Below, in pieces: positions 4,815-29,601 of a DNA stretch of 64,000 bases; the stretch's first letter is position 1; each line of letters starts with the position of its first letter. The position numbers and the translations under genes are program-made. The stretch lies in the NCBI RefSeq assembly GCF_009914755.1, contig NC_060930.1, one strand, 5' to 3'. The notes beneath the pieces are model-generated. The model did not search any database. It was given only the letters and a program-made list of their open reading frames with translations, and was not told where the DNA came from. This DNA is from the human T2T-CHM13v2.0 reference genome, Homo sapiens.

Positions 4815-4877
4815 GGAGAAGCAGGATTACCAGGAGCTCCGGGTTCACCTGGGCAGAAAGGGCATAAAGGAGAGCCG
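4815..4877 (+). CDS. COL19A1: Collagen XIX exon, 63 bp, 7 Gly-X-Y triplets (about exon 9)
   Basis: tttttgctcag|GGA...CCG|gtaaga; GEAGLPGAPGSPGQKGHKGEP. Confidence 0.97.
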
Positions 4878-8467: not shown

Positions 8468-8764
8468 TTTTTTTTTTTTTTTTAGACAGAGACTTGCTCT
8501 GTCACCCAGGCTGGAGTGCAATGGTGCAATCCCTGTTCCCTGCAACATCCGCCTCCCGGGTTCAAGCGATTCTCCTGCCTCAGCCTCCTGAGTAGTTGAG
8601 ATTACAGGCACCCGCCATCATGCCTGGCTAATTTTTGTATTTTTTGGTAGAGATGGGGTTTCACCATGTTGACCAGGCTGGTCTCGAACTCCTGACCTCA
8701 GGTCATCCACCCACCTCGGCCTCCCAAAGGGCTAGGATTACAGGTGTGAGCCACTGCTCTCAGC
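8468..8764 (-). mobile_element. AluS (Sx-like), full length
   Basis: Alu consensus with poly-T; TSD acaatgtgctagtt at 8452-8465 and 8765-8778. Confidence 0.95.
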
Positions 8765-9000
8765 ACAATGTGCTAGTTTTTCAAATATGTTCCTTGCATT
8801 GTTTTACTTAGATAATGTCGATTAGAAGCCATCCAGACACAATTATAACTTACTTTTTCTCATTAACTGTATAATATTAGTCTTTTGGTGCATTTTACTT
8901 TTGGCCCAATGTAATAAAGTGAGAAAAGATTTGAGAATACAACTTCCACATCTCTTTCAAATTATATGTCACTACATTACAGTATTTCTAAAGGTGTTAA

Positions 9001-9511
9001 GATTTTTATTAATATGTTAATTGACATAACAATTATACGTATTTATGGAGTAAAGTGTGATATTTTCATTCATTTATACAATCTGTACTAATCAAATTGG
9101 GATAATTAACATGTCCATCACCTCAAATATTCATTATTTCTTTGTATTGGGAACATTCAAGATTTTCTCTTTTAGCTATTTGAAAATATTCAATAAATTA
9201 TTGTTAACCATAGTCACCCTACAGTGCTATTGAACAGAAGAGCTTATTTATTCTTTATAGCTGTAATTTTGTATCTGTTAACCAACTTCTCCCTATCCCC
9301 ACTCCCACCCTTCCCAGCCCCAGTAACCATTATTCTACTCTCTACTTCTATGAGATTAACTTTTTAAACTTCTACATATAAAGGAGAACATGCAGTATTT
9401 ATCCTTCTGTGCCTGGCTTATTTCACTTACAACAATGTCATTCTGACTCGTCCATGTTGCTGCAAATGATGGGATTTTACTCTTTTTTATGGCTTAATGT
9501 CATTCCATTGT

Positions 9512-9558
<47 letters not shown>

Positions 9559-10557
9559 AAACATTTTCTTTATCCATTTATTAATTGATAGACACCCATT
9601 TTGATTCCATGTATTAGCGATTGTGAGTAGTGCTGTAATAAACACAGGCTTTCAGTTATCTTTTCACCATACTTATTTCCTTTCCTTTGGATACATATCC
9701 CCAGTGGGATTTCTGGATCACATGGTAGTTCCATTTTTAGTTTTTTGAGGCATTTCCATACTGTTCTCCATAATAGCTATACTAATTTACATTCCCACTA
9801 AAAGGGTGCAAAAGTTCCCCTTTCTCCACAACTTTGGTAGCATTTTTTTTGGTCATTTAGATAATAGCCATTCTAAACTAGGGTAAGATGATATCTCATT
9901 TTGATTCCAATTTGCTCCTCCCTCATGATTAATGTTGAGCATTTTTTGATGTATTTCTTGGCCATTTGTATGTCTTCTTTTGAGAAGTGTCTATTCAGAT
10001 CATTCACCCATTTTAAAATCAGATTATTGGGGTTTTTGTTTGTTTGTTGCTGTTGAGTTGCTTGAGCTCCTTGTATATTGTGGATATTAATCCCTTGTCA
10101 GATGAATACCTTGCAAACGTTTACTCCCATTCTGCAGGTTGTCTCTTCATTCTCTTGATGGTTTCCTTTGCTGTACAAAAGCTTTTTATTGCAATATGGT
10201 CCCATTTGTCTATTTTTGCTTTGGTTGCCTGTGCTCTTGAGGTTGTAGCCACAAAATCTTTGCCTAGACTAATGTACCAAAGCATTTTCCATACATTTTC
10301 CCCCAGAAGATTCATAGTTTTGGGCTCTACATTTAAGTTTTCAATCCATTTTGGGTTGATTTTTGCATATGGTGAGAGATAAGGATCTAGTTTATTCTTC
10401 TGAATATAGTTTTTCCAACACTGTTTAACAAAAAGACTGTCCTTTCCTCAATGCACGTTCCTGGCACCTCTGTCAAAAATCAGTTGGTTGTAAATACATG
10501 GATTTATTTATGGGTTCTCTAGTGTGTTCCATTGGTCTGTGTGACTGTTGATGACAA
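9001..10557 (-). mobile_element. L1MA-type 3' fragment (3'UTR plus ORF2 end) containing (TG)n at about 9510-9555
   Basis: L1 ORF2-like peptide in ORF 10121..10315 (KAKIDKWDHI..KSFCTAKETI); degenerate TSD tctaa(a)ggtgtta at 8987-8999 and 10558-10569. Confidence 0.9.
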
Positions 10558-10689
10558 TCTAAGGTGTTATGCTTTGAGCATCCTTACTTTAATGCAGCAA
10601 ATTCATAGAGAAAAATGTTACTCTTATTTATACACATACATTATGAGTTAGACAATTATTCCGAATAGTCATGTAAGCAAATCCTGTCC

Positions 10690-11165
10690 CACCTGAGCCA
10701 AAACCCACTAATGACTTCTTGTCTCTCTTAAGGTAAACCCCAAAGCTCTAACCATGGGCTATGAGGCTTCACATAATGTGTAGAGCTCTCCCCTACCTGA
10801 CTCCTCAATCCCAGATTGTCTCGTACCCTCTTCCCTTGTTCACTTTTGCTCCAAGTCCTTTGTACCAGTTATGTATGCCTGAAGTGTCCTTGTCCACATC
10901 CACTTGGCTCGCTCTCTTCTTCACATCATTTAGGCCCTTGCTCAAAAATAACTTTAAAATAAAAAGGCCTTCTGGCATCTCTATATAAAAAGCATCCTTA
11001 CTCCCACCTCTATCCTCTTACTTTGCTTAGCACTTTTACTGCCACCTGACACATTGTCATCACGCATCTATTTCTTTCCCTGTTGGAAAATGAGTTCTGT
11101 GAGCCTATACATAGAACAACACATAAATAATAGGAGCTAAAAATATGCTGAATGCATGAATGAAC
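10690..11165. mobile_element. L2 remnant
   Basis: L2-like 3' portion ending in aaatatgctgaatgcatgaatgaa. Confidence 0.6.
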
Positions 11166-12154
11166 ACTATACCTCAAGGAAAGTTTAAATAATCAACTCA
11201 GCTATTTCTAGAAACTGTAAGTTCTCCTTCCTAATTGCCCAGGAGACTCTGCTGAGCAAGGCAAAGATTCAATTTGCAAGGAAAGAATTAAATAATATTA
11301 TATTGTTAACTATTGTTCTACTACAGTTTTTTCTTTTAAAAAACAAAAATTCTTTTCACATTGATTTAATCAGGTTTAGCTTAGTATTGTCTAGGTAATG
11401 AAGCATCAAAAATATTTTGCAAAAAGCCAGAAGTTTTGGCAAAACTTAATATGTATTTTTATTTGCCTATTTTCTTATCTACTATGATGGTTTATTAATA
11501 TGATTTACTACTTTTTCTTTTTTTATAAAGGTGATGGTCACCTCTCATGGAATAATGCAGTTTTAAGTACTACTGCTTGTATTTAATTATCTAGTTGTGA
11601 TCAGCATTCTATATCAGAACACCTAATCAAGCGATTTTAACCATGCTCTTTAACACTAAACTCTGTATAACATTATTTGAAGTAATAATTAATACTTTTC
11701 TTTCATTTAGACTCAATTGTAATAATTTTCTGAATTTTTTAATTCCCTTTTGTTAGCAAATGTAGTTAGCAACCTAATTCCTTAGCAACTGCATTACTTT
11801 CTCAGTTCTTTAAGACCCTTGTTAATACCCTCACCCATTTCAGAGCTGAAATTCTCTCAGAGTTTTATAAAATATTAGCTCAATTTTAATGTTCTTGAAC
11901 CTGAGGGGAAGTGTTATCTGAGCTCCATTTTGGGAATAATTTTCCAGTTTATTTTTCTATTATTATCTTCCATATCTCCAGTTAATTTGCCAAAATGTGT
12001 TGACTTTATGAAATGATTGCTTTGCTGATATGCTTTGACAGAAAATCAAAACTGTTTAAAATGGAATAAGTTAGCTTATTTGACTTCTTAGTCAGAAACT
12101 GGTATTGATTTATTTCAACTTCTCCTGCCCTCCAATCCCACTATAGAGGTTTTC

Positions 12155-12355
12155 ATTTTGAGTAGTCTAATATGCTAACCCAGAGATGATGAGTAAGTTT
12201 CCCCTCATTTTCTTTCCAATCTGACATTACTCATATGCCCATTCTGTAACCATACCACAACAATAAAAATTAATTAAACCAAAATACGTTCATAATTTTT
12301 AAAAATAAGGATACCTTCTCTTAGTAATAACTTTACAGAAGTAGGATTTAATATT
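12155..12355 (+). repeat. Left arm of 201-bp inverted duplication
   Basis: Reverse complement of 13032-13232 with 8 substitutions and no indels (manual alignment). Confidence 0.97.
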
Positions 12356-13031
12356 ATTCTTTTGACTTCTTTTAATATGTCAATATAAGAAATAATAATG
12401 TTTCTTTATCCTTTCTAATCCCATATTGAATATATTGAAGTAATTGACAAGTCCTTTTTTTGGATCAGTTTTACCCAATTTGATATAATCTCATGTAATC
12501 TACAGGAATTCACTTGAAGGTGAAATTTACTTGTGGGTCTTCATCTGAAATTAACAGATAGTATCATTATAATAATGGTATTACATATTCATAAAATTAC
12601 AATATATTTCTTAATTTCTACCAAGTGTTAGCGACAGAGAAACTCATTCAAAAAGTGTATATTATTTTCCACTGTTTTGAGGATAAATTTATTAGACTGA
12701 ATTTGTGATAGTGCTTTTAAGGAAGCCATAGATGATCCATAGACTTCCTTGCACCTGTTTTTCCATCCCTGCTTGGCAGTTAGACAGAAGAGCAAGGAAG
12801 CTGATCATTGGATTGACCCAGCTTTGGGGTTTTTCCTGGAGGATGTAAAGGAAAGTCAGGCATACTAAATGAAACAAATAGGAATATCTTAGAATCTGAA
12901 ATTTCCTGACCTACTTGAATTGAAAGCATCGGATAGGATGTAGCTTTTAACTCATTTAAACTCATTTATCATATTAATTGAAGTAACAGCAATAGTATTA
13001 TTCCTTACATTTGGTAAATGTACTTTTGGTA

Positions 13032-13232
13032 AATATTAAATCCTACTTCTGTGAGGTTATTACTAAGAGAATGTATCCTTATTTTTAAAAATTATGAACA
13101 TATTTTGGTTTAACTAATTTTTATTGTTGTGGTATGGCTACAGAATGGGCATATGAGTAATGTCAGATTGGAAAGAAAATGAGGGGAAACTTACCCATCA
13201 TATCTGGGTTAGCATATTAGACTACTCAAAAT
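13032..13232 (-). repeat. Right arm of 201-bp inverted duplication
   Basis: Reverse complement of 12155-12355; flanked by TTTGGTAAAT direct repeats. Confidence 0.97.
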
Positions 13233-13495
13233 TTGGTAAATTACAAAGCTGAATTACATATTTCTGTGTGAATATGTCTAGTTTTAGTTATGATTAGCAC
13301 TTAGATATTTACGAATTACTGATTTTTTACAATTTATTATTTTGGCTTGTGGGCAATATGAGGAAGGAACTTGAAGCACAAACTTTGGTGCAAGCAAAAG
13401 CAACTCATCTAGGAAGAGGTAGATTCACTTTGACAACATTAGTAATTAACGCACCCCTTAAAAGTAATCTCCTAATAAGCATTTCTGTATTTTAG

Positions 13496-13549
13496 GGTGC
13501 AGTTGGTAATAAAGGTGAATTTGGTGCTCCTGGAATTCCTGGGGAAAAG
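13496..13549 (+). pseudogene. Vestigial or unannotated 54-bp collagen exon with a non-canonical (AT) donor
   Basis: ctaat...tttctgtattttag|GGT GCA GTT GGT AAT AAA GGT GAA TTT GGT GCT CCT GGA ATT CCT GGG GAA AAG|atatga; 6/6 Gly in register, phase 0. Confidence 0.85.
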
Positions 13550-13639
13550 ATATGATGGTTTACTCTTTGATCAAAATTTATGGTTATTTTATAAAGCTGT
13601 ATCAGATAGGATAGGAAAATATACAGAACAAGTCCTATA

Positions 13640-13872
13640 GTTTAGAAGTAATCAAACTGTGGCCCTATAGTAGGGCTGCCAGAAACTCTCACTGTAGGAT
13701 TTTGTACATAAAGTTTTACTGGAACACAGCCACACTCATTTGTTTTTGTATTACCTAAGGCTGCCTTTGTGCTTCATGGCCAAGTTAAGTAATTGTGGCA
13801 GAGACTGTATGGCCCACAAAATCTAAAATATTTACTCTCTGGCCCTTTGTTGAAAAAGCTTGCTGATCCCTG
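13640..13872. mobile_element. MER58A-like hAT-Charlie DNA transposon
   Basis: taaagttttactggaacacagccacactcatttgttt...ctaaaatatttactctctggccctttg...tgctgatccctg. Confidence 0.8.
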
Positions 13873-16800
13873 CTCCGGAACATTGGCTGCTATTCTTTTA
13901 GCCCTAGGGCTTCTCAAATTCACCATTTTATATATAATATGGTGTCTTAATATGTATTTCACTGCAGACAAAAATTAGGCAGTTTATGTAAACATTTTAT
14001 AATATAGACTATAAGACATACTATAATTAAAAATATAAGAAATATATTTCAGTGTATCAATAAAATGCTATACTGTAGGCTATAGCTCATAAAATGATTG
14101 ATTTTTATGTTTTTCCTGTAATACCACAAAGATGATTCCAAACAATAAATTCACTCACGAGAAGTTACTGTTGCAGTTTAGCATCTTATTCAACTTCAGT
14201 TTTTGTAGAATATTTAAAAAATTGTTGTATTTGTATATTAAACTGCAATCACCTTGTCGTATTTTTCCCTATATATGCCTATATTAATATTAATAACTTT
14301 GCTAAATTTTTAAAGTTCTCATATGTTGATGCTAAGAAAATTCTCTTCTTTATGAAAATATGCTTAGTATAAGTTTTTGTGGCATTCTAGCTGCACTGAT
14401 TATCAAGTGAGTCCATTGTGTCATTATCTAGAAGGCCATGACCATTGTGGTTTTATTCACCTAAAGTTAGCACAGCAATAACTGAAGCTGAAGCAGTAGG
14501 AGGTTCAGAGGTTTTCAGACAGATATTTTTTCAGACCTTCATAAATGTGTCTCTGGTATCTGATGGCTTCATTGATGCTACTTTTTCCTTTCATAAATTA
14601 TTCAGTCTGATATGCAAATTCTTTACTCCTATAGGAATGTAACTGTTAAACTCAGTAAAGTCCAACAAACTCTATTGAAAAACAATACCTTGCTGCAAGT
14701 TGATGTTTATTTGGGCTGCTATCTTCTTGTATAAGCTTACTGATGACATTAATTGACGATTCTTCATCATAAATAAAAGCTTCTTTAAATACTTGTTCAA
14801 AGTTCTAATTCTTTAAAAATATCTTTTCTCTAGAGAATATTACTTGATCACCTAAAGAGATGCCCCAATCTAAATTTACCTTGTACCCTTATTCTACCAA
14901 TCTTTTTCTAAAATGCATCACAATAATCTGATTGTTTAGATTTCAGATCATTAGGAGTTTTTGAATTATTCTGAACATGGGAATCTTTTTTAAAACATTT
15001 GCAGAATCACCGAAGCGCTTGAGCTATAAAATAGATTGTTTGACTTTATTGTGGGATGTAACGTGAGACTTACGTACATTTACACAATAAATTATGGCAT
15101 AGCAGGATAGAATTCCCTTTGAATGCTTTAAAACAGAATTTATCAAGGTTGGTATAAAATAGCATTAATTTTAACACTCCAAAATGACAGCCCTTGGATC
15201 CTTATGTATGACAACCAGGTGCAAACTGCTACTTATTGGTTGTGGAACAGGTTCTCAACTCCTGAAAAGGTGATGTCCACAGACTGACAATATAAGGACT
15301 AGATGAAGCATTCAGTAGAATCAATCCTGTCAAAAGCTGATCAAATGAATTGCCATCCAGGGCCATGATAGTAAGAAAACAAGTCTAGAAAGTTAAGTAT
15401 GCAAGCCAAGAAATTCTCTAGAAGAAGAGAGAGTTTCTTAGAAAAGAGAGGGCATTTGGGGCAACGTGAAGGAACTGGAGCAAGTCAGTATTTCAGAGAC
15501 AGGCACTACTCAGAACTAAAAATTTTGTTTCTTTTCCCAGAAGTCCACTTTTGTAGAAAGAATCTTGTGTGGTGATTCATCCTATATTTCACTTAAAGTA
15601 AAACTTCAGTGAATATAAAGGAAAATACTGATAATCTAGTTAGATGAAGTCATTCTGAAAACCAAAATCCTCAGCCCTTGGTGCCCATTTGGTCAAAATG
15701 GTGACTGAGAGAGTCTTGCAAAATCAGTTAATGAGTGTGTCTGTGTGAAGACACTGTTCCCAGAGAACTTAAGAAGCTAATATCATAAAGAAGCAGCTGT
15801 TTTTATGGTGTTCTAAAACCATGGCAAAATTGTCCTGGCAAATACTCTTTCATGTTTCCTCAAGCAGTTTTCTTCTGGGTCTAATTTACTTGAGTTACTC
15901 TTAAAGGGTCTCACAGACAGTTAGAGAATTCATGTAACTTCCAGTGGTGCTAAATATGGTAACAGATTACGTTTAACTCTTGGTTCCCGGATTCACACAT
16001 CATCAGAGACCGTACTTAGTGGTTAATATCCTTCCAATACCTATAGAAGCACTGAGTCTTTGACCACTTTCTCTTCCCAAGGACTCAGTCCCTGGTGGTG
16101 CCAGCTATGATTCTAACTTGTCACTTCATTTAGCTGTTAAAGGGGTGTGACACTCTTGAGTGAAAAAATGCCGCCTCAATAGTGTTTTCTCGCTTCTATA
16201 ATCCACAGGTTACCACTTATTGAAAATAATTCTAAAGAATGTATACAAAATGAAAACAAGAAAGTTACTAGCGTATTATCTAACAGTAGGTTAATAAATT
16301 GTAAAATTTTTTTTAAATTTCAAAATTTTAAAATCATCCTCATGAGGTTTATGTTTGGGGTGAAATATTTCTGTTATTTTACAAGAAAAATGGTTTGTTA
16401 GATTTTTCTAAGTAAATTTCCAGAGAAAAATTATCAGTTCTTAACATGTGTGTCACCTCAGGGCTTTGTATCCCACATTTGCTTCAACGTGAAATATGTG
16501 CATCTTCCAGAGTAACTTATCCAGCATCCCCTTAACTTTGACTCTGCTTGTCAGCAGTTATAATTCTTTGTTTTGTTTTGCTTTGCTTTACATAGAATCA
16601 GGAGTACTTAAGAGTACTGTTAAAAAATAAATAACTAGGTTGAATTGTTTAACTGTTTCACTTGGAGCAAAAACATATGTACAATACCATAGAATATGTA
16701 TCTCAGGTCTAATATTCTCAAAGTGAAGATTTTTTTCTAAAGTTAACATTTAAGCTAGGAAACTGATTTATATTAATGGAGTGAAGCATATTCTGAGCAG

Positions 16801-17457
16801 TATGAAGTATTAATTTGTACATTAACTATACTTTACACTTACATCAATGTCATACTTCAATAAATTAAGTGATTTGCATATAAATCACATTATTCTAAAA
16901 TAAACCTACACTTTGAAATTTAGCTAGGTAATAGCAGTAAATTCTTTTAAGTCAAGACTCTGAACAATGTATTAATATACTGTGGTGGCATTTTTCCTCT
17001 GACACCAAGGATAAAAATAGTACACTAAACAACACAATTTTATAAAATGTATTTATGGAATGTGGAGTCATGAGGACTCTAATAAGGATGAAGTATAGCA
17101 TTTAGTTATGTTCTTTTGTAATTGTAATACTTATCACCCAGTACAGACTTGCAGTAGACATTCTTAATCTAATATTAGTTCTAATCTAATAAAGCCTTAC
17201 TGTTAAACATTGCATAAAAATAACTGTCCCCTTTACATTTATTCAGAACAGCTATGATTTTGCCTAAGAGATTCGGTAAGTGTTCTGTTATGAGTTCATT
17301 TAAGAAAATCAGTTCTGTGTAGCAGTATTATTAGGTAGCTGGCGACTTCTGGTAAGCTTGGATGGACAGAAGGCTCTGTCAATCAAAATAAGTAAACTGG
17401 ATGGTTCCATTTCCAAGAGAAGTGAATGACTCAAAGCATGAGATCACATGAATGCAG

Positions 17458-17458
<1 letters not shown>

Positions 17459-17496
<38 letters not shown>
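17459..17496. repeat. (CA)n microsatellite
   Basis: Direct reading. Confidence 0.98.
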
Positions 17497-17499
<3 letters not shown>

Positions 17500-17949
17500 T
17501 CACACCTTGCATCCTCATGGTATGAAGTAGGAAAATGAGATGAGGATTTGGACACTATGAGCAAATTTTGCCCACTTTGCCCCCAAATATAACACTCAAA
17601 TCATGTTTGTTTTCATTACCTGAATACTTCAAACAAAAAAGTGCCTCATTTCATACTTCACTTATGTATTTAAACATAAAAGATATATTTCTCTAGAAGT
17701 GGGGATTTTTTTCTAAGTAGGAATAATTATTGTCCAATAATCTTATCCTAATAATGTGATAGTAAAAATTGAACAAATATAGAGCCTAATTTATGCTAAA
17801 ACCCATATTCTATCTACTAAATTACTTTAAATTTGCCCTAAAATGTTTATTTTAATAGGAAAACTTTTACTAAGTTAATTTTGCTCCCCATGGAGTAAGT
17901 ATGAAGTAAATCATAGCCATCATTACTTTACTATGCTAATATTAAATAC

Positions 17950-18150
17950 TCAGAGTTAGACTGCCTGGGTTTGAATTCCAGCTCAAAATCTTACTCTCTA
18001 ATTTAGAGCATGACACTTGGTCTCTCTAAATGTCAGTTTTCTCTTTTATAAAACAGGAATTATATTGCATCTACTTCTAGCTTTATCTTAAGGATTAAAT
18101 AAGATTATTCATAAAAGTGTCAGCACCTGGTATGTAAATATTTGGTAAAC
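17950..18150 (+). mobile_element. MIR
   Basis: agactgcctgggtttgaattccagctc...tcagttttctcttttataaaacagg. Confidence 0.7.
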
Positions 18151-18434
18151 AACAGATATAATTTTAACAATAAACAGTTTGATGATTCTATTATTCTAGC
18201 CTTACTGTGGGACCAGATTAGAACTTATTTGAAGGAATGTATACACTTCATCTTAGCCAAAAGGCCAAGAAGCAAACACTTGGGGGAATTTATATTAGTT
18301 ATTGAAAATATATTTACAGGAAAATGTTAAAGTCACATATCTTATGTAACCTTGACCTCTTAAAACAAACTAGATGTCAGAAAACCAGTGAATTCCTCAC
18401 TTATTATAAATATGTACAAGAATATAAACTTTTA

Positions 18435-18700
18435 CAATAATAATAATAACAGCCATTTACTCAAAAAGTGTTATATGCTAAATGCTATCAGGAGCCTTCT
18501 TCACATTATTTCATTCACTCCTTACAACACCCCTGTGAGGTAAGATTTATTGTCACTATTTCACAGATTAGGAAACAGATCTAGAGAGAGAGAGGGAAAA
18601 AAAATTAAAAACTTCCCCTAACTTGGTACGGAGAAAATAGTAGAGTCAGGATTTGAACCTCTATCCATGGAAATCCATAGCTCTTGCCCCTTTGCCATAT
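18435..18700 (-). mobile_element. MIR
   Basis: ccttacaacacccctgtgaggtaag...tttcacagattaggaaacaga...caggatttgaacc. Confidence 0.75.
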
Positions 18701-21700
18701 TACCTCATCTGGACAGCTCCTCAAATATTCAGATTTCATTTACACAGGCAGGTCTGAATTAGATCTTAAATTTGTTTGCCTGCCAGTTTAGTGAGTGAAC
18801 TGCAGTTTGCTTCGGACATCCTGCTCCAAGGAGGGCTGTGTCCCTTCCCTTTAAATCCAAGGACCCCTTTTAAACTGTATCTGACCCTAGGGATTCTGAC
18901 TCCCCCACCTTCATAAGATTGTGTTCACCTATTAAGAATCATTATGCATATGGTTTTTCACCAAATGAGAGGGTTTTGTCTAGCTTTACCTTCCAAAATA
19001 AGTATCATGGAAAAAAATTTGCTTGGTTTCCAAGTACAGGTTACATTTGAAGTGTGTTTTCAAACATTCCGCGCTTGACTCTCTGGAGATTCTTAATCTA
19101 CCCTGCATGCCCACGTCCAGGCAGCTCAATCATGGGCACTCTCCAGATTAACCTTAATGCAACACCTAATGTAGAAATTTTTCTCTTACATTCTCCACCA
19201 AATAAATATATATAATTTATTTATCAAAAACAAAATTGTTTAACTTAGTACCATGGCTTTATAAAAATATAAAATAAATCAACCTTCTGGAAGTAAAAAA
19301 AAGCTGTATATATTAAAGCACTTAAGAAGTACATCTGATAACATGATGAGAGAGTGGCCAAGCTGCATGTCTTAAAAATAGCTGGACTAACTATCATCAT
19401 TATATGAGGATATGCTTTGTATGATGGGTCTTTTCACCATAAACTCTGAAGCCCTCAGCACTGCAGTGAGATGAGACTGAATGAGGCAGATCCATTGTTC
19501 CCTAACAGTCTTTGTATTTCTTTTCTGCTGGAAAATGAAATGACTATGATCTTTGAATCTTGATTTTCCCTAAAAAGACATTTTATGAGAAGACTGCAGC
19601 TTCAGAAAATAAAGGCAGATGCTGTTACAGTTTATGTAAGTGCAGACAAGGCCAATCACTGTTGTGAATTATAATGAACTTTCTAACAGTGCTGGTCCAG
19701 ATGTAGCATTAATGCTTCAGAGACTCAGAAACTTATAGGCAAGTAGTATAAAAGCTAGAGAATTTTAAGCCATTTGGCTTCCTCTCTATATTTCTAGCCT
19801 CACCTAATTTTTCTGTGCTTAATTTTAGACTTCCTAAGTTTAAAACATAATTTAAAATGCCTAATGCATGTGACAATTTATTATAGAAATTGAGGCCATT
19901 AAATGAGGAGGAAAAAAAAAGACAACTTAGCTTTATTCTATCAATGGAATACTTCCTGCCTATGAAATTGTTAGGCTTTATAAAACAAGAATGTTTTCCA
20001 CTTTAGAGAAAAATACCTCTTAAGCAGAGAATCACCTGTATATCTGTGTAATTTAGAAAATTCTCTAATGAGTGAAGGTATAGTCAAATCTACACACAGG
20101 ATTGAATTTTTAATCATAATTAGTATTCATAGAAAAAAATGACCACAAAGAAACAGTTTTGTAAGCCTACTTGTTGGCTTTACTTGTTAAAGGTAGGAGA
20201 ATAAAACTTGAATTATCAGTGAAAAACTATTGCTCTTACATGGAATAACTGTCATTTAATTGTCTTATCTATAGACATATATTGATACAATATAGCACTA
20301 AAATAAGCAGAAACATAAGAAGGACAAAGTAATAGAAGGACAGGAAAAAGAAAAAGAAACTTGCTCACTCTGCAGCTGATTTTATTTCTTAATGGTTTCT
20401 TATTCCCTTCTAATGCCTTCCACTCACACCCCAAGTAGAGCAGTTGGCAGGGAACACAACAGATGGATGACAAGCTCACCACATGCCATGTATCTGGCAC
20501 CCAGGCACTTGACTTTTATTTGCTAAACAGTCAGATTTCAAGAACCTAGTCTGCTAATGTTCCTGTTTGGTTTAATGTACTACCAGCTTCTAGCACGTAA
20601 ATATTAAAATATTGCCATAAGAAAGCTCACACACTCTGTGTTTCTCTGCATAGTTAAGTGGCTAATTATTTTATTCTTGGTGTAGATACTGAACAGTGGA
20701 TTTAAACATATAACTGGTATTTTATAAAGACATCTATGATTTTAGATATTAGAGTTTCCTTAAAGTGGCTCTATCTAAAGGAGCTTTTAGCCAGACACAT
20801 CAGGGACTGCCAAAGCCGGTGTAAGGTATTGAATGAACCTGTTAGGGAAGACTAGAAGATTTGAGCAGATGATCACAGATGATTGGTATCTTTCTTTTCT
20901 ATCTCCATCACTGCATTTTCAGATTATTAAACTCAAAACACATGCATTTTTTTCATGAATTCTCCCAGGCCACCAGGCAAAATTACAGCTTATCCACTCA
21001 GCTCACATAGCACTTTATTTATATCACCAATGTAGAGTGTGTCTATACACCCTGCTAAAATGTGAGCTCCTGGAGTAGAAGGACTTGGGGTCTGTCTCAT
21101 CTCTAATCCCAGCAACTGACCCAGCGTATGGTACCTGGCTGGTTCTGGATAAGTGTTTGTTGAGTTGTTCAGAATTCGAGGACTTAGCCCCAAGCCAGAA
21201 ATAGAGAAGAGAAATAGAGAATGACTGTTAGAAAACTTCGCTGAGGAAAGATCGGAAAAGCACCCCAATGCCAGCAACACTTCAGTGAAAGTCCTTCGTA
21301 CTTTCTACAGAAGCATAATTTAGGGAAACAAGGGAATCTCTTCTTTGCACAACAAAGTTTACAGGTATTGCTTCCTAGAATTAAATATAATAGAAGTGTG
21401 TGCATCTCCAGAATTTGCTTTCCATTTTCTCTTGGAGAAAGTATGCTCTTCCCTCTCTCTCAAACACAAATATTCAAGTTATATTGCTTTCTTTTTATCC
21501 AAACTAGATTTGAAAATCTCCTAACTTTCTTACAACATTGTTAGGGTGTGTTCCTTCTCCATATCTTCATAACCATTTACTTCAGGGCTAAAGATAAGTA
21601 ACCAATGGCTTCAGTACATTTAAGGTCCAGTAGAAGTAATTGATATGGAATAGAACTATAAATTACTCATCATGAGGAATACTCCAGGCAGGAAATAGTT

Positions 21701-22300
21701 TTCAGTTACTGCTATATCATTGTCCTCAATTAGGAGCTGACTGATGACACTGTCCTTCTCTTTATATCTTAAATCATCTTTCACTTGTTAGAATTCTGTA
21801 TTCAGATGTCAATCACTATACTTCAGATATTTCAGTAGATGATTCACATTAAATAAGTATTTCTGTAGTATTTTTATGAAGTTTTAAGTTTGGTTTAAAG
21901 ACTCTCTTACAGTTAGTCTCATAATAAAGTGAAAAGCCCAAACATTTGTGCCTGACACTTTCAGGAAATCATCACAGTTACATAGGAGCCCAGATTTTGT
22001 AGTGGGTTCTACAACATTGACTAAGGCTTAATTCTCTAGCTTTGCTATGTGTAGGAAGAAACTTTTACCTCTCCAAGACATTTCAAAATTACTTGGGTTT
22101 TCTTTTTGTTTTTTTATTTGAATAACTCTTAGTACAACTTGTATTTAATTAATTTGAAAAAGGATTGTAAAATAACATCCCTTTGACAGGAAAACTTAAG
22201 GATTGTAGTTGACTACAAATGTAGCATATGTAAACAATTTAGTTTTAAAAAGAAGCACGTTGTATTAATAGAAGTACAAAACTGTATAGTAGCCACAGCA

Positions 22301-22302
<2 letters not shown>

Positions 22303-22352
<50 letters not shown>

Positions 22353-22368
22353 AAGAGAGAGAGAGAGA
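22303..22368. repeat. (TG)n(AG)n compound microsatellite
   Basis: Direct reading. Confidence 0.98.
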
Positions 22369-25300
22369 TGGTCCTGTTCTGTATTCTATGTGAGTAAGAC
22401 CATTTCTGGAATGATGTGCTGAGTTCTGAGAGCCACATTTTAAAAGACATGACTGACCCGTGTGTGCCCAGAGAACAGGGACCATAGTATTAAGAGACTC
22501 CAAACTATCATTTGAAAAATGAGTGGTTTACTGAATAGAAGGCTTGATAGTGGCACAAAGGGATGTCATGTATAAGACCTATAACTTTTTTTCTGTGTAA
22601 TTGCAGACAGAAGAAATAAGACTGATGGGCAAAATATGGGGAAGGTTAATTTGGGTTCAGAAAGCATTTATTCAGTAACCACACAGTGAATTTTTTTTCT
22701 TTGCTCTCCACAATGCAAATTAAGCAGCAAAAGTATTTGACTTTAAGAAGCTTTCAATAGAGTTGGTGCCTCATCAGATTCTTTGGTGGAGTTGTTATAC
22801 ATAAATGCATGAATTTATATTTGTCCTTAAATTTAAGAATGCCCATCCTGCTTGTTTTCTAGGCACATGCACCTGTATATACATACATACACACATATAC
22901 ATATACACTCAGGATAATAGATTTTAAGAGAGTAGATGTTGTTAGCTACCACTAACCACCCATACATACATTACCATGATCAAGACATGTATTGACCCAT
23001 AAGAATAAATAATAATAGGATCTAATTCATTTAAGATTAAAGTTTCAAATTGGCCTTATCCTGAGCATTAATGTGATTAAAATATCCCTATGCATTGGCC
23101 GCATTAAGGATCCAAAAAATATAAAGAATTCAAAAAGTTTGAGATTTTAAATTCTTTGCTATATATATATTTTTAACTTGGTAATTTATTTCTTAGAATG
23201 AAGTCCCAAAATATAGAAGGAAAAAATTCTCCCCTTGAAATAAAAGCATTCAGATTGGATATCTGAAAAAAATTTAAAAATATAGGTTTTTAAAAATTTC
23301 CTGAAACGTTTAATGGACTGCCAACAGTTTAAGAACCATAAAATATTTCAATTTCTAAAGATTATGGCTGAATAAAGCAGGACTATAGTCAGTAATGTAG
23401 AGGTCACCTTAGTAATACACAAAATCAAAATCAGATTTACTTTTTTCTGCCTATTTTATTGGTTTTAGTCCTAGAATCCTGGCATTCCACTTCTGATATT
23501 TCTTCTAGTTATTTCATGCAATATTCAACTTAAGTAAATTTTCTTTTAATAAATATGAACTAATGAATGGGGAAGTATGATATATTTCAAGTGGACACTA
23601 AATTTATATAGAAGGTTATACTCCTAGAAAAATATGCTCTAAGTAAAATGATAGGTCAATTTTTTCAGTACAGAAATGTTATAATAGGATCTCGGACATT
23701 TTAATCAAAGGCTGAATGTCTAACTGTTAAAAAAAATCACCACAGGATAGTATGTAACTTTCTACTTTCTGGATCAAATGCTGGTTATTTGCAATTTTTT
23801 TGTTTCCCTGCTTGCTTTATCTTTATTTGCTTGGTCTCATTTATACTGGGTTTGCAAACTATAGCCCTAGGGAATGTGATTTTTTTTATCAAATGTCCTT
23901 CAGACAATATATGTTTCCTGCACAATAAGAAATACATTACTTCCAATGTCAAAAGAATCAAGAAAACTAATAATTTATAGTTTATGACCAGCTATGCTTA
24001 CTGTTGAAAAATATGCAGTGATTACAAGGACGTAAAATTAAATCCAGTGATCAGTTTTTCAGAAAGCAACCAGCTGACCCTAAACATCACCTAACTTTGT
24101 CCCAAAAACTTCTCAAAGAGGTTATTTTGAATTTTGGAAAGGGTACTTTTTGATTGTCCTGTGAAGTTAAAGACATGCTATGTGTTATAGTAATAACCCA
24201 GGCAACGATACTATCGGCAGCAACATTAGATTTTGCCTGCTTTATATTACACATATTTATTAACTTATCTTCCTGTAGTTTGAATTTGTACCTGAAAAGG
24301 AATACAAGTCCTTTCATAGAAAACCCCGTAATGAAAAAAAAACCCTCAGAAATAAGTTTTGAAAGTTATGGTTTCTATGGGAATCATTTATTGTGATTTT
24401 CTTTCAATAATGAACTAAAGTATTGATTGGAAGCCAAAGAAGAAGCATCTTATTTCTTCTTGGACTGAAATTTTGAGGAAGGAGAGGCAGCAGGAGTTCA
24501 GAAAAGAAAACTAATGTGTACCTTCCAGTAATTTTAGGAGGATATTTATTTTATGAATAGAATTAAATTTGCCCTCAAAGTGCTTGTGGCACCTAGAACT
24601 ATAAACCTGGGTGTCAGAGGGAGCATAAAGAAAGACTTCTTCTGTTGACATAAGGTAGGTTTTAGATAAACACATTTCCTATGAGATAATCAGTGATGTC
24701 CACTGAGTTATCGTTGAGTCTAGAATTATGTTTATAAAACACATTCAGTCAAGAAAGAGCAGAGACCATTTAATGCTGGCCACAGGAAAACACAGTGTTT
24801 TAATTACAACAATCATAAAACCTGTGTCCATTAAAGACATATTCTCAATATCACAGCTCTAGAGAGTTTTGGTACCCAATTAACAGTGCATCTGGGTGTA
24901 ATCCTAACCTGACATATGGCAGGCTAGGACTTTGGGTGCCAGTACCCAGAGCACCTGGTGCATGAGTGGGCTGTGAGCAAAGAAAAAGGGGAGATACTAT
25001 CACAACCTTTTTTCCCAAAAAAGTATTTTTGGCAGTGTATACCGTATTGGCGTACTTTAATGGATAATATGCCATATCTCATGATCGTATGTAACTAGTA
25101 ATATGATATAAAACATTATACTGGATCAACTGATGAAAATAATCTGCTCCTTATGGACAAGTGGACATACTTCTGTGATGAGTAACAGGAGCTCCATTTC
25201 CATAGACTGTTTCCTGGCACCAAATACTTAATGTGTTTTCACTATCACTTTATCAAATGATATTGGAAGTTTCTAATAGATTTGTGTGATGCCTGAGGTC

Positions 25301-26771
25301 TAAAACTATAACAATTTGTTTAATGATAGAAATGTATTTATTATATAGATAAGTAGATTATATTTTGTTGATTCTGTAACATTTAATTACATTTAGCAGC
25401 AAAGTTTTACTTTAGTGTTTAGTATATACTGTGATGATAGCTGTTTTACCGTAGAATACTTTGATAATTTAATCTAATCTAAGAAAAACCTCAATCTTTA
25501 AAATAATATGTGTGCATGTATGTAGCAGACATCTCTGGTAAGAACCACTAAAACTGTCCTTAAAATGTTTTAATTAATGAAATAATGAAAAATTTCCTTA
25601 GATTTAGACAGAATATTGCTATTTTAAAGTTTAAAGATGTGACTTTTTTCTTCATAGATTTTGAATTTTGCTTAAATAATTCAAATAAATGATAGCTAAT
25701 TGCTTTCTAGGGAATGTTTAAAAACTGTTATCTTATAAATTAATTGTAAATATTTGATAGAAATAAAGCAGTTCCATGAAATTGTTAGCGTATTTTGAGC
25801 TGTCTAAACCTGGAAACTCAGAAGCCAAAGTAAATTCCTATAAGCAGGAAAATTCCTAAAACTCTATTGAGAATATGCACATCCTCTCAAGAGTATCTCA
25901 TTCTAGCCTGTGTGCTGTTTACAAACCAGACTTGTCAAAGAGATGACCCCAGAATTCCAGCAATGGAAACTAAAAGCCATCTGTCTTTTTACCCAAGACA
26001 GAAACCAGATGAACAGGAAGAACTAAAAAGTCTTCCAAGTAATTGCTTTATATTAAATGGCATTGGGTATGTATTCAAAATTGATCTAATGGCAATCACC
26101 AGATATGGGTAATAAAGTAAACATGCTTGTACATATATAAGAATACACACACACACACACATATATATAATATATATAGTGAGAAAAAATTCCGATTTTA
26201 GGCAAGAAGTCACTTAAAGCCAGAATTAAATCTTTTTCCAAAGACAGTGTAGGAAGGCAGCTAGGTATGCAGAGTTGAAGTGTTTGGGCTCAAATTCCAA
26301 GTCTACCACCTATTACTGTGCAATGACCTGTAAGAAGTTCATTGAGGCAGTATTATCTGCCTGATAGTTTTGTTGTCAAAACAGCAGTGCCTGGCCCATA
26401 GAAAGCACGATGTCAGACTTCAATATTATTCCCAGAAGTTTCAAAGAGAGAAAATGAAATGAGATACTAAATAACATGTGGAAAAACATAGGCTGTAGGA
26501 GACCTCAGTCCCAATCAGGTAAGTTACTAGTTAGGTGACCTTTGACATGTTACCAAACCTCTCGGAGCCTCCATTTCCCTATTTTAAAAATTGAGGTGAC
26601 AGTCCTGGATTTGAGAAATAAGGAACAGATGGAAAGTCCCTATGCATGATAGATATTCAGTATTAGGCTACCTTTCCCCACAACACTAGAGCTATTTGTT
26701 AAAGACCACAAAAACGTCTATGTTCATATATCTTTATGGATCATAAACATTATTCTGTGTACTTCTTTTAG

Positions 26772-26816
26772 GGTGAAAATGGTTTACATGGTGCTCCAGG
26801 ATTCCCTGGTCAAAAG
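26772..26816 (+). CDS. COL19A1: Collagen XIX exon, 45 bp (about exon 10)
   Basis: ttcttttag|GGT...AAG|gtaaag; GENGLHGAPGFPGQK. Confidence 0.97.
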
Positions 26817-27399
26817 GTAAAGAGTTCTTGAATGTTTCATCTGAGTTAAGAATTTTAACGTGTTAAAAATAAATTTGCACATAATATTCTGAAATTGTAT
26901 TTGATTAAGCTGAATTCACTCAAAGACTTTTAGAAAGCTATGGATGTCTTTTCAAAGAGAACTTGTGGAAGCAATCCCCTCTTGAAGGGACCATTCTAGG
27001 AGGAAGCTTTATCACAGAGCTTTAGTAACATGCTCCTCCAAAGAACTAAATGGTAGTAGTGCTTTCTGGGGTCCGTGATAGCTGCTCTGGAAACGTTTCT
27101 GCTTTTATTAGTCAGAGTCTAAAATGTAAAATAGAACAAACTGTACTCCCTTTGACTAGTTTTGTTACCTCTTGCTTATCTTCTTTTTTGTATATCCCAG
27201 ATAGAGCTAAACATAATAGTTAGAATGACATAAAATATTATATATTACAAAGATGCTGTAGACAACTACCTCTTCAAAAATATTTTTCTTTCAGAACAAG
27301 GGATTCCTAATAAGCAAGGAGTTTTGCATGGGCCAGGCTGCCTCTTCCTGTGCCTAGTATCTTTCTCTTTAACAAGATGAACTTCCTTTGTGCCCCCAC

Positions 27400-27706
27400 T
27401 TTTTTTTTTTTTTTTTTTTTTTTGAGACGGAGTCTCGCTCTGTCTCCCAGGCTGGAGTGCAGTGGCGCGATCTTGGCTCACTGCAAGCTCTGCCTCCGTT
27501 CACGCCATTCTCCTGCCTCAGCCTCCCGAGGAGCTGGGACTACAGGTGCCCGCCACCACAGCCGGCTAATTTTTTTTTGTATTTTTTTAGTAGAGATGGG
27601 GTTTCACCATGTTAGCCAGGATGGTCTCGATCTCCTGACCTCGTGATCCACCCGCCTCGGCCTCCCAAAGTGCTGGGATTACAGGCGTGAGCCACCACAC
27701 CCGGCC
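27400..27706 (-). mobile_element. AluY
   Basis: Diagnostic ctgcaagctc, ttcacgccattctcc, gttagccaggatggtctcgatctcctgacctcgtga; CpG-rich; no TSD found. Confidence 0.93.
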
Positions 27707-29601
27707 AGGGCTGCTTTCTTCTTCTGGGAAGAAGCATGGTTATCTGTGACAAGCATTACTAAAAACACAGAGACCATTATATTCCAGTTTCTTGGAGGGA
27801 CGGGGAGCCACTTCAGGTGGGGCCAGCTGTCATGATACCATCCAGATAATCCCGCCGCAGGAGAGAGCATTATTGATGTAATATTAGATGCCCACCAAAG
27901 CCAAGCATATCATTTCTGTGCTCTGGAGATGTTTTACTGGTTTTGGCAACAACATGTCAGAAGTTACTATGCATGTAGGTTTTTCTCTATAGCTGAAAAT
28001 ATCTTTTAAAAAGATATGCACTTATTTATAGTTACAGATTGTGTTAAAGAATTTATTTACTTGGCCCAATAAAGATAATAAGATTGAACTGGCAGCAATG
28101 AAACGGCAAGCTTCTGAATTTCTTCACAGCAGCTCTAGACAAAACCCATTAATACAGCATGTACTGCATCTGCGAGTCAAGTTGCAAGCCAAGGGATGTG
28201 CAGATTTATCTGCTGGGAAATAGTTTTGGACTTTCCAGCAGCTGTTTGTGGTGGCTGCATCATGCTGACATTGTGGCTGATGTACTGGAGGCGTTTAGCA
28301 GCTTCAATGTCAGCTTGAATTAACAGATCAAGTTAAAGTCTATATTTTAGGAAAAATGGTAGAAAAAAATATAGACCATGCATTCAGTGGTGAAAAACAA
28401 TACCTAACAACTGACATATATTCTTTCCTGGTAACTTTTAGAGGGTAGATGAAGCAAAAATAATTATTTAATTACATGCATGTAACACACACACATATAT
28501 TATTTAATCATCTAATTATATTATCTAATTATGTATACTATTTAATTATATAATCATAAACATATATGCAATTATGTGGGTATATATATATAAAAAACAT
28601 ACTCACAAACTAAATATGTATGTATACATGCATGCATGTTTCTATATAGTTAAAAGCTGGCATTCCCTTTCATATAATTAGTATAAATTTTATGTACCAA
28701 GGGTCACCTTGTTGAGGCATTACAGAAAAAATTCTAGAGATCAGAAACCCTCTATCTCCTGTCTCTGTGCACTCAGGAAATGCTTGCTGAATGCTTCTTA
28801 TGCTCCAGGCCCTCCATGGGTGGAGAGATGCACATGACCTGTTCCCAACATTCACTTGCTAGCTATGTTGTCATGAGTGCCTGACATGTAGGAGGCACTC
28901 AGTCAACTTTTGTTGAGTGTATGAATGAAACACCAGTTAAGGGGGGAGATAAGCTTGTCAGATCAGAGAGGGTGTAGATGAAGAAAGGGAGATGTACACC
29001 TTTTAGTATAATCATGGTGATTGAGAGCCAGCAGCCCTCCAACCACCAATCTTCTTTCTGTGACTGAGCCAGCATAGTGGACAAGAAGAAGCATAGCACT
29101 GGTGTCGAAGGTAGAGCCAGAACCCAAGGGTTCAAACCTGAACTCATTCATCATAAGACACTTACCAGAATGGTATGCCATAGAAGTCAGCTTTCTAAGA
29201 AGGCTGTTTCCACTGAATCTAGTAAAATAAATAGTAATTATAAGAAGAATGGCTAACTTAGTCTTTGCCATGAACTATGAGGATGAATCAAACTCTCAAA
29301 ACAAACCATTGAGGAAGATAGTATTATCATACTTATTTTATACCTGAGAAAATTCAGGCTTATCAAGATTAAATTGCCTTGGAAGTGGTGAAGCTGTAAC
29401 TTATACCCTAGAAAATTGTTCCTTTAGTATTTAGAAATATTTAAATCTTATGTAACAATATTGGTTTAGAGCTTACATGTTAGAAATGGTTATTTACAAT
29501 TACTGATTTTTCATTGTTTGAAACATAATTTTTATTGTAAAAATTGCATGTGTTATAAGTATCATTTTTATTACTATACACATCATATTCCTCTTCTACA
29601 G

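What the first reader, a model, noticed from the sequence alone, without database searches (positions are those of the whole stretch)
13465..13555. Hidden 54-bp collagen exon with a single GT>AT donor lesion inside a COL19A1 intron
Seen: a branch-point-like CTAAT (13472-13476), a pyrimidine-rich tract and AG, then exactly 54 nt encoding GAVGNKGEFGAPGIPGEK with 6/6 Gly in register and no stop. It starts on a Gly codon and ends AAG like the neighbouring exons, then reads ATATGA, one transition from a GTATGA donor. Established: 54 bp is the archetypal collagen triple-helix exon size, and phase 0 would fit in frame between the 63-bp and 45-bp exons. My recollection of human COL19A1 runs GHKGEP-GENGLH directly, without this peptide. 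Inference: an exon lost by donor mutation recently enough, or still constrained enough, that the Gly pattern has not decayed. That would mean lineage-specific shortening of the first collagenous domain by 6 triplets.
Basis: partly seen in the sequence, partly recalled or inferred. Interest (0 to 1): 0.9.

Follow-up and report, generated by a model that had tools for sequence, protein, structure and literature searches.

The report
Dead collagen exon inside COL19A1 intron
A perfectly collagen-like 54-base exon lies unused in an intron of the human collagen XIX gene because its downstream splice signal reads AT instead of GT; it looks like a relic of an exon the gene once used, but when it was lost could not be settled here.

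Summary
Window 13496-13549 (+) is a 54-nt, stop-free frame encoding GAVGNKGEFGAPGIPGEK (6 of 6 Gly in register). It is preceded by CTAAT, a pyrimidine tract and AG, and followed by AAG|ATATGA. It lies in COL19A1 intron 9, between two phase-0 collagen exons, and is in none of the 8 RefSeq transcripts.

It is not chance. It is the only non-coding run of 5 or more Gly-X-Y triplets in 212 kb of the gene. Its acceptor beats 17 of 49 real acceptors of the gene. Its donor context without +1/+2 beats 31 of 49 real donors, but the donor as it stands scores below all 49. Its X/Y codons alone are collagen-XIX-like.

Best reading: a vestigial triple-helix exon silenced at the donor.

The "recent, lineage-specific" part is not shown. 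No vertebrate genome or orthologue was reachable. The published mouse chain (1,136 aa, same exon numbering) has no extra exon. Neutral drift would keep the frame intact with P about 0.06-0.16 since the primate-rodent split.

Moderate interest: a new member of a known kind.

The parts
13472..13476 (+). Branch-point-like CTAAT (fits yUnAy; candidate branch A at 13475, 21 nt before the first exon base)
   Evidence: Read directly. The consensus is recalled knowledge.
13477..13493 (+). Polypyrimidine-rich tract before the acceptor
   Evidence: It is part of the 28-nt acceptor that scores 9.19 bits against a matrix of the gene's own 49 acceptors (leave-one-out mean 10.12, sd 4.41). That is higher than 17 of 49 real sites. 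Only 6 of 1353 AG dinucleotides in intron 9 reach this score, itself included.
13494..13495 (+). AG acceptor dinucleotide (the TAG at 13493-13495 also closes the frame upstream)
13496..13549 (+). 54-nt relic triple-helix exon: six Gly-X-Y triplet pairs, GAVGNKGEFGAPGIPGEK, phase 0 at both ends
   Evidence: One search gives the translation; it is the only non-CDS run of 5 or more units in 212 kb; codon model 1.98 bits/codon against 2.14 +/- 0.67 for 34 real exons, and 0 of 21,590 intron 54-mers reach it. On X/Y codons alone it scores 0.60 against 1.05 +/- 0.58, reached by 0.037% of intron 54-mers.
13550..13555 (+). Disabled donor: AAG|ATATGA, with A where every real donor of the gene has G; in-frame TGA at 13553-13555
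   Evidence: The full donor scores 1.87 bits, below 49 of 49 real donors. The same 9-mer without +1/+2 scores 5.37 bits, above 31 of 49 real donors, and only 0.47% of 21,885 intron positions reach that. GTATGA is a real donor tail in this gene (CDS piece 39).
4815..4877 (+). Upstream annotated exon 9 (CDS piece 8, 63 nt, phase 0), GEAGLPGAPGSPGQKGHKGEP; start of the COL5 domain
26772..26816 (+). Downstream annotated exon 10 (CDS piece 9, 45 nt, phase 0), GENGLHGAPGFPGQK; the closest sequence relative of the relic
   Evidence: It matches 33 of 45 nt in Gly register. At non-GG positions the identity is 65.7%, equal to the maximum of 561 pairs among the gene's 34 in-register collagen exons. No similarity remains in the flanking intron.

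Best explanation
Window 13496-13549 is a vestigial triple-helix exon of COL19A1. It once lay between today's exons 9 and 10 and added six Gly-X-Y triplets (18 residues) to the N-terminal collagenous domain, COL5 (144 residues today by my sum of the exon lengths).

It is no longer spliced into mRNA because its 5' splice site begins AT instead of GT, so U1 snRNP cannot define the exon, and the 21.9-kb interval is removed as one intron. The rest of the exon definition apparatus is still in working shape: branch point, pyrimidine tract, AG, and donor positions -3 to -1 and +3 to +6.

Shown: the exon-like anatomy, its statistical rarity, the broken donor, and the absence from RefSeq transcripts. 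Inferred: that it was once used, that the donor change is what silenced it, and any date. It may share an old tandem-duplication origin with exon 10.
For: 1. Anatomy at the stated coordinates.
2. Both neighbouring exons are phase 0 and start on Gly codons. 54 nt is the commonest exon size in this gene, at 16 of 50 CDS pieces (my count).
3. Rarity: it is the only non-CDS run of 5 or more units in 212 kb on either strand. A looser scan (5 or more of 6 Gly in register) adds only G-rich or stop-containing chance windows: 1 other on the sense strand and 4 on the antisense strand. Markov simulations gave no run of 5 or more units in 40 x 212 kb.
4. Splice signals were scored with the gene's own sites. 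The acceptor is within the real range (above 17 of 49; 6 of 1353 intron AGs reach it). The donor context is above 31 of 49 real donors once +1/+2 are set aside. The donor as it stands is below all 49. No GT within 120 nt downstream scores above 2 of the 49 real donors.
5. The codon choice at X and Y positions alone (Gly ignored) resembles collagen XIX. Only 0.037% of intron 54-mers score as high.
6. It is not in any of 8 RefSeq transcripts.
7. The best in-register match among 34 collagen exons is the adjacent exon 10. No flank similarity is left. If the two are old duplicates, the coding pattern must have been kept by selection long after the duplication.
Against: - No orthologous exon was seen in any species. 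No vertebrate genome or full-length collagen XIX protein could be reached.
- By published description, mouse mRNA has the same exon numbering and a chain of 1,136 against 1,142 residues. It therefore lacks this exon too.
- If the loss predates the primate-rodent split, neutral survival of the intact frame is only about 0.06-0.16 (at d = 0.15; that calibration is recalled, not computed here). The splice signals would also have had to survive.
- The match to exon 10 has a rough chance probability of about 0.06 (34 comparisons, top 1 of 561 background pairs). It could equally mark a duplicate that was never used.
- Transcript evidence is RefSeq only. No RNA-seq was available, and the reference is one haplotype.
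- Phe at a Y position (GEF) occurs 0 times in 204 Y positions of the real exons. This shows some departure from the working pattern.
Confidence: 0.7

Rival explanations
1. Stillborn duplicate. A tandem duplication of exon 10 left a second copy in intron 9. This copy was never a constitutive part of collagen XIX, or was at most a rarely used alternative exon, and is simply decaying.
For: The closest relative among 34 exons is the adjacent exon 10: 33 of 45 nt, equal to the best of 561 background pairs. Both share ttttag|GGTG at the acceptor. Mouse mRNA lacks an extra exon.
Against: No flanking intron similarity remains, so any duplication is old. An unused copy of that age should have lost Gly codons or gained stops or indels: P is 0.004 or less at 0.3 substitutions per site. 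The alignment also needs a 9-nt length difference. The X/Y codon usage is still collagen-like.
Confidence: 0.1
2. Not dead. The exon is still used at low level or in particular tissues. This could happen through a non-canonical donor, or in haplotypes that carry G at window 13550, since the reference is a single haplotype.
For: The acceptor and donor context are in the working range. The frame is fully open. A reference listed in the review (title only seen) says the mRNA 'displays many unique splicing variants'.
Against: None of 8 RefSeq transcripts has it. AT at +1 scores below 49 of 49 real donors. The site does not fit the U12 AT-AC donor consensus (recalled as ATATCCTT), and the downstream exon has an AG acceptor. 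The nearest GT (13558) scores -1.18 bits and would bring the in-frame TGA into the mRNA.
Confidence: 0.08
3. A relic kept by selection for a non-coding role. For example, it could act as a decoy or stepping-stone site that helps the spliceosome handle the 21.9-kb intron, which would explain why it has not decayed.
For: Preservation is better than neutral expectation if the loss predates the primate-rodent split. It also sits in a 17.3-kb stretch without masked repeats of 100 nt or more.
Against: No direct evidence. A decoy role would not need the Gly-X-Y frame or collagen-like X/Y codons. The acceptor is not followed by GT, as recursive splice sites are (the rule is recalled). The whole gene is poor in masked repeats.
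Confidence: 0.1
4. Chance: an intronic sequence that merely happens to read Gly-X-Y six times.
For: By rough arithmetic of my own, a 3-Gb genome should hold some tens of six-unit GGN runs by chance.
Against: Within this gene the expectation is about 2.5e-4 per 212 kb of strand. This is extrapolated, where counts fall about 30-fold per added unit. On top of that, the acceptor is in the top 0.4% of intron AGs, the donor context is in the top 0.47% of positions, X/Y codon usage is in the top 0.037%, and the orientation and phase are correct.
Confidence: 0.02

Closest known systems
Working 54-nt triple-helix exons of COL19A1 itself (for example CDS pieces 11, 12, 14, 15, 21-23)
   Same: Length of 54 nt, phase 0-0, first codon GGN, ttttag-type acceptor, AAG exon end, and the Gly/Pro codon choice (GGT, GGA, CCT).
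   Different: The donor begins AT rather than GT. It is absent from all RefSeq transcripts. The X/Y codon score is in the lower part of the real range, above 6 of 34. It has a Phe at Y that is never seen in the real exons.
COL19A1 exon 10 (CDS piece 9, window 26772-26816)
   Same: 33 of 45 nt identical in Gly register, a shared GAPG.PG.K core, and an identical ttttag|GGTG acceptor junction.
   Different: 45 against 54 nt, no flank similarity, and exon 10 has a GT donor and is constitutive.
Disease pseudoexons switched on by one deep-intronic base change, such as COL6A1 c.930+189C>T
   Same: An intronic segment of a collagen gene that is one base away from a usable donor, with a ready acceptor. 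For the papers I saw only the search listing and the starts of the abstracts (PMC10996746, PMC7321786).
   Different: As I recall, the COL6A1 pseudoexon is ordinary intron sequence whose inclusion interrupts the Gly-X-Y repeat. The present element already encodes a perfect Gly-X-Y block and looks like a former exon, not a fortuitous one.
Evolutionary exon loss in matrix genes, e.g. loss of tropoelastin exons 34 and 35 in primates
   Same: Lineage loss of a short repetitive-domain exon that leaves the reading frame intact.
   Different: As I recall, those exons were removed by recombination. Here the exon body is still in place and only the donor is broken. The lineage in which this one was lost is unknown.
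U12-type AT-AC intron donor
   Same: The intron side begins ATAT.
   Different: The next bases are GATG rather than the recalled CCTT consensus. The partner acceptor of exon 10 is AG, not AC.

Membership tests
Collagen triple-helix exon (54-nt class) | Gly codon at every third codon, no stop | tested here: met
   6 of 6 Gly, 18 codons open
Collagen triple-helix exon (54-nt class) | Length a multiple of 9; starts with a complete Gly codon and ends with a complete Y codon, compatible with its neighbours | tested here: met
   54 nt. Both neighbouring exons are phase 0.
Collagen triple-helix exon (54-nt class) | Functional 3' splice site (branch point, pyrimidine tract, AG) | tested here: met
   9.19 bits against 10.12 +/- 4.41 for the real sites; above 17 of 49. 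This is a sequence score only, not a splicing assay.
Collagen triple-helix exon (54-nt class) | GT (or GC) at the 5' splice site | tested here: not met
   AT at 13550-13551. The donor scores 1.87 bits, below 49 of 49 real donors.
Collagen triple-helix exon (54-nt class) | Present in mature mRNA | tested here: not met
   Absent from 8 of 8 RefSeq transcripts. RNA-seq was not available.
Vestigial (lost) exon | Coding and splice-signal signature beyond chance, in the sense orientation and correct phase of the host gene | tested here: met
Vestigial (lost) exon | Identifiable disabling lesion | tested here: met
   A at donor +1. Whether it was the first or the only lesion is an inference.
Vestigial (lost) exon | Orthologous exon still spliced in another lineage | not testable with these tools
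   No vertebrate genomes are held. A protein word search with the largest exon (92 aa) found no named candidate. The Atlas search returned no ids. Mouse mRNA appears to lack it.
Tandem exon duplicate of exon 10 | Sequence similarity exceeding that of unrelated collagen exons, extending into the flanks | tested here: inconclusive
   The exon body equals the best of 561 background pairs, with a rough p of about 0.06. The flanks show nothing.
U12 AT-AC intron boundary | ATATCCTT-like donor paired with an AC acceptor | tested here: not met
   The donor is ATATGATG, and the exon 10 acceptor is AG. The consensus is recalled.
Poison (NMD) exon | Spliced exon carrying an in-frame stop | tested here: not met
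   A stop would enter only through the GT at 13558. That site scores -1.18 bits, below 49 of 49 real donors. No transcript uses it.

The most novel reading that the evidence does not exclude
The exon is still spliced in other primates or mammals and was silenced only on the hominoid or human lineage by the single G-to-A change at the donor. Human collagen XIX would then carry a COL5 domain six triplets shorter than that of its closest relatives. That would be a lineage-specific structural change in a matrix protein tied to muscle basement membranes and inhibitory synapse formation (roles as stated in the abstracts listed). The perfect state of the frame and of all other splice signals fits a young lesion best: P of intactness is 0.79-0.93 at 0.006-0.0125 substitutions per site. 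The mouse data would then need an independent loss, or alternative use, in rodents.
Probability: 0.15. Interest if true: 0.65.

Novelty: new member of a known kind. Interest (0 to 1): 0.4.

Why it matters
If it is a true lost exon, it records a change in the length of the collagen XIX COL5 triple helix. Loss of exons through splice-site decay is known, but clean examples are rare in which the exon body, acceptor and donor context all survive and only one base is wrong. Such examples are useful for dating and for testing exon definition.

There is also a practical point. The element is one base from a consensus donor, with a ready acceptor. A variant at window 13550 (T2T chr6:71,127,550) could plausibly cause in-frame inclusion of 18 residues. 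Variant interpreters should know this, by analogy with the COL6A1 deep-intronic pseudoexon.

I found nothing in print. Full-text searches for COL19A1 with 'pseudoexon' gave 0 papers. COL19A1 with 'exon loss' gave 0 papers. The peptide string gave 0 papers. COL19A1 with 'exon' gave 140 papers, of which I saw only the 25 listed, none on this topic. Subscription papers on the gene structure (Khaleduzzaman 1997, Sumiyoshi 1997, Inoguchi 1995) were not readable.

Tried and rejected
Cross-species test by proteins. The largest COL19A1 coding exon (92 aa, L006:151-426) was used as the query of the search for homologous proteins. No named candidate was found, and 40 unnamed candidates were left out. 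That search only sees proteins of up to 1.75 times the query length. I considered two ways round this and did not use them. One was a long unrelated open frame (the big COL8A1 exon, or the collagen-like minisatellite frames seen) as a stepping stone. The other was padding an alignment with such a carrier. The first had little chance of listing collagen XIX, and the second would have gone round the tool's length limit.

The Atlas search with the same exon returned only laminin-G-like fragment clusters and no usable ids.

The control genomes of the genome search are bacterial, so no vertebrate genome was available.

Literature. The zebrafish col19a1 paper (PMC2990213) is not held. Review PMC7034273 gave domain nomenclature only, and its '55 exons' disagrees with the 51 of RefSeq. 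One search added nothing.

Other identities were rejected. There is no Rfam family in 11500-15500. There is no repeat family or local duplication covering the element. No second copy of the peptide was found in the genome.

Whole-gene scan. Relics in the unscanned alternate 10-kb pieces cannot be excluded.

Exon tables in supplements of comparative-splicing papers might bear on the question.

Full report
WHAT IS THERE. On the + strand, one search shows CTAAT (13472-13476), a pyrimidine-rich tract, and AG (13494-13495). Then come 54 nt (13496-13549) that translates as GAVGNKGEFGAPGIPGEK. Gly occupies every third position (6 of 6) and there is no stop. The codon before the block is TAG. The block ends AAG and is followed by ATATGA, whose TGA is in frame.

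WHERE IT LIES. The window is inside COL19A1. The select transcript NM_001858.6 has 51 exons and 50 coding pieces. The extra exon is the 5' non-coding one, so coding piece n is exon n+1. The element lies 8.6 kb into the 21.9-kb intron 9. Upstream is exon 9 (4815-4877, 63 nt, GEAGLPGAPGSPGQKGHKGEP). Downstream is exon 10 (26772-26816, 45 nt, GENGLHGAPGFPGQK). None of the 8 RefSeq transcripts (1 NM, 7 XM) has an exon between 4877 and 26772. By the field's numbering from the C-terminus (PMC7034273, passages), this part of the protein is COL5, the N-terminal-most collagenous domain. Summing the exon lengths gives 144 residues for COL5.

IS IT MORE THAN CHANCE?
- I scanned 212,000 nt of the gene (the window plus 15 pieces of 8-10 kb, 61% of the gene) in all frames of both strands for stop-free runs of GGN-NNN-NNN. 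Outside annotated CDS, the only run of 5 or more units is this one, with 6. The other non-CDS runs are one of 4 units on the sense strand and two of 4 units on the antisense strand.
- A looser scan (5 or more of 6 Gly in register, at least 60 nt from CDS) found 4 sense windows. Three of them are this element and its two 9-nt shifts. The fourth is a G-rich stretch near the gene's 5' end. It also found 4 antisense windows that are Gly-rich or contain stops.
- In 40 first-order Markov simulations of 212 kb, the mean number of starts fell from 265 (2 or more units) to 9.0 (3 or more) to 0.275 (4 or more). None of the 40 gave 5 or more. Extrapolating the roughly 30-fold drop per unit gives about 2.5e-4 expected six-unit runs. 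That figure is my inference.
- The DNA (300 nt) and the peptide each match only this place in the T2T genome. It is therefore not a repeat or a retro-inserted fragment.

SPLICE SIGNALS. I built weight matrices from the gene's own 49 acceptors and 49 donors and scored real sites leave-one-out.
- The relic's acceptor scores 9.19 bits. Real acceptors average 10.12 with sd 4.41, and it is higher than 17 of 49. Only 6 of the 1353 AG dinucleotides of intron 9 reach that score, itself included.
- The donor as it stands scores 1.87 bits, below all 49 real donors.
- With positions +1 and +2 set aside it scores 5.37 bits, higher than 31 of 49 real donors. Only 0.47% of 21,885 intron positions reach that.
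- AAG is the commonest exon end in the gene (19 of 49). GTATGA is a real donor tail, at coding piece 39.
- No GT within 120 nt downstream is a credible substitute. The best, at 13648, beats 2 of 49. The nearest, at 13558, scores -1.18 and would carry the in-frame TGA.
- The site does not look like a U12 AT-AC donor, and exon 10 has an AG acceptor (the consensus is recalled).

CODING SIGNATURE BEYOND GLYCINE. I used a position-specific (G, X, Y) codon model from 34 in-register collagen exons of the gene, scored against intron trinucleotide frequencies.
- The relic scores 1.98 bits per codon. Real exons average 2.14 with sd 0.67, and it is higher than 9 of 34. None of 21,590 intron 54-mers reaches it.
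- Using only X and Y codons it scores 0.60. Real exons average 1.05 with sd 0.58, and it is higher than 6 of 34. Only 0.037% of intron 54-mers reach it.
- It is thus collagen-XIX-like but in the lower part of the real range. Phe at a Y position (GEF) is seen 0 times in 204 Y positions of the real exons. This could be a trace of drift after silencing (inference).

RELATIVES INSIDE THE GENE. Among the 34 exons, the best in-register match is the adjacent exon 10. It shares 33 of 45 nt, or 65.7% at non-GG positions. That equals the single best of 561 exon-exon background pairs. With 34 comparisons this is only suggestive, at roughly p = 0.06 by my estimate. The two also share the junction ttttag|GGTG. 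There is no similarity in the flanking introns. If the two are tandem duplicates, the duplication is old. An unselected copy of that age should have lost its frame, which argues that the relic was a working exon for a long time after the duplication.

WHEN WAS IT LOST?
The protein word search cannot reach full-length orthologues from single exons (one search was blank with the largest exon, 92 aa). The Atlas gave no ids.
- The only cross-species evidence comes from passages of PMC2172222. The mouse chain has 1,136 residues, against 1,142 in human. Mouse exon 4 codes for 32 residues plus split codons. [quoted passage not shown] The human exons of the same numbers have exactly these sizes: 100 nt in phase 1, and 51 + 45 + 27 nt. 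Mouse mRNA therefore has no additional exon between exons 4 and 38.
- I simulated neutral decay of the 54 nt. The chance of keeping 6 of 6 Gly with no stop, without and with an indel term, is shown below.

| Substitutions per site | No indel term | With indel term |
|---|---|---|
| 0.006 | 0.93 | 0.89 |
| 0.03 | 0.69 | 0.57 |
| 0.06 | 0.48 | 0.32 |
| 0.15 | 0.16 | 0.06 |
| 0.3 | 0.03 | 0.004 |

- From memory, not from a call, the human lineage has accumulated about 0.006 substitutions per site since the chimpanzee split, about 0.03 since the Old World monkey split, and about 0.15-0.17 since the primate-rodent ancestor.
- A single loss before that ancestor is therefore possible but somewhat unlikely under pure neutrality, the more so because the acceptor and donor context also survived.
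- The alternatives are a later loss in primates with an independent loss or non-use in rodents, an alternative exon missing from the canonical cDNAs, or some continuing constraint. I cannot choose among these.

VERDICT. The element is very probably a former triple-helix exon of COL19A1, silenced at its donor (confidence 0.7). The claim that the shortening is recent and lineage-specific remains untested and is not favoured by the mouse data. I put about 0.15 on a hominoid- or human-specific loss. Exon loss by splice-site decay is a known process, so this is a new member of a known kind. It is unannotated in RefSeq and, as far as my searches reach, unpublished. The practical corollary is that the site is one base from a usable donor, like the disease pseudoexon of COL6A1 (listing and starts of abstracts only). 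That makes window 13550 a position worth flagging for variant interpretation.

Noticed in passing
window 10056-27389: 17.3 kb of intron 9 around the relic holds no masked repeat of 100 nt or more in the annotation file. Alu-like copies sit just outside both edges (8468-8765 and 27409-27722). The whole gene is poor in masked repeats, so this may not be special.
   Followed up: partly
window 9502-9575 and 22295-22368: Two (GT)n microsatellites lie in intron 9. The review cites CA-repeat markers elsewhere in the gene, but none at these places.
   Followed up: no
G000 chrX 1215612-1217888 and chrY 1230078-1232533 (inside IL3RA, PAR1): Long stop-free frames (up to 716 aa) score above the Pfam Collagen cut-off many times over (gene overlap). 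They are probably a G-rich minisatellite read in a Gly-X-Y frame.
   Followed up: no
G000 chr15 58151894-58153225 (+ strand, inside ANXA2, which is on the - strand); chr8 828800-828955 (DLGAP2); chr16 7260865-7261183 (RBFOX1): These are further collagen-like open frames (598, 544 and 235-321 aa) outside collagen genes. Their nature was not examined.
   Followed up: no
window 13514-13522: The triplet GEF puts Phe at the Y position. This occurs 0 times in 204 Y positions of the 34 in-register COL19A1 collagen exons. It may be a substitution that arose after the exon fell silent.
   Followed up: partly
literature (PMC7034273): The review states that COL19A1 has 55 exons in 250 kb. RefSeq on T2T gives 51 exons over 346 kb.
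   Followed up: no
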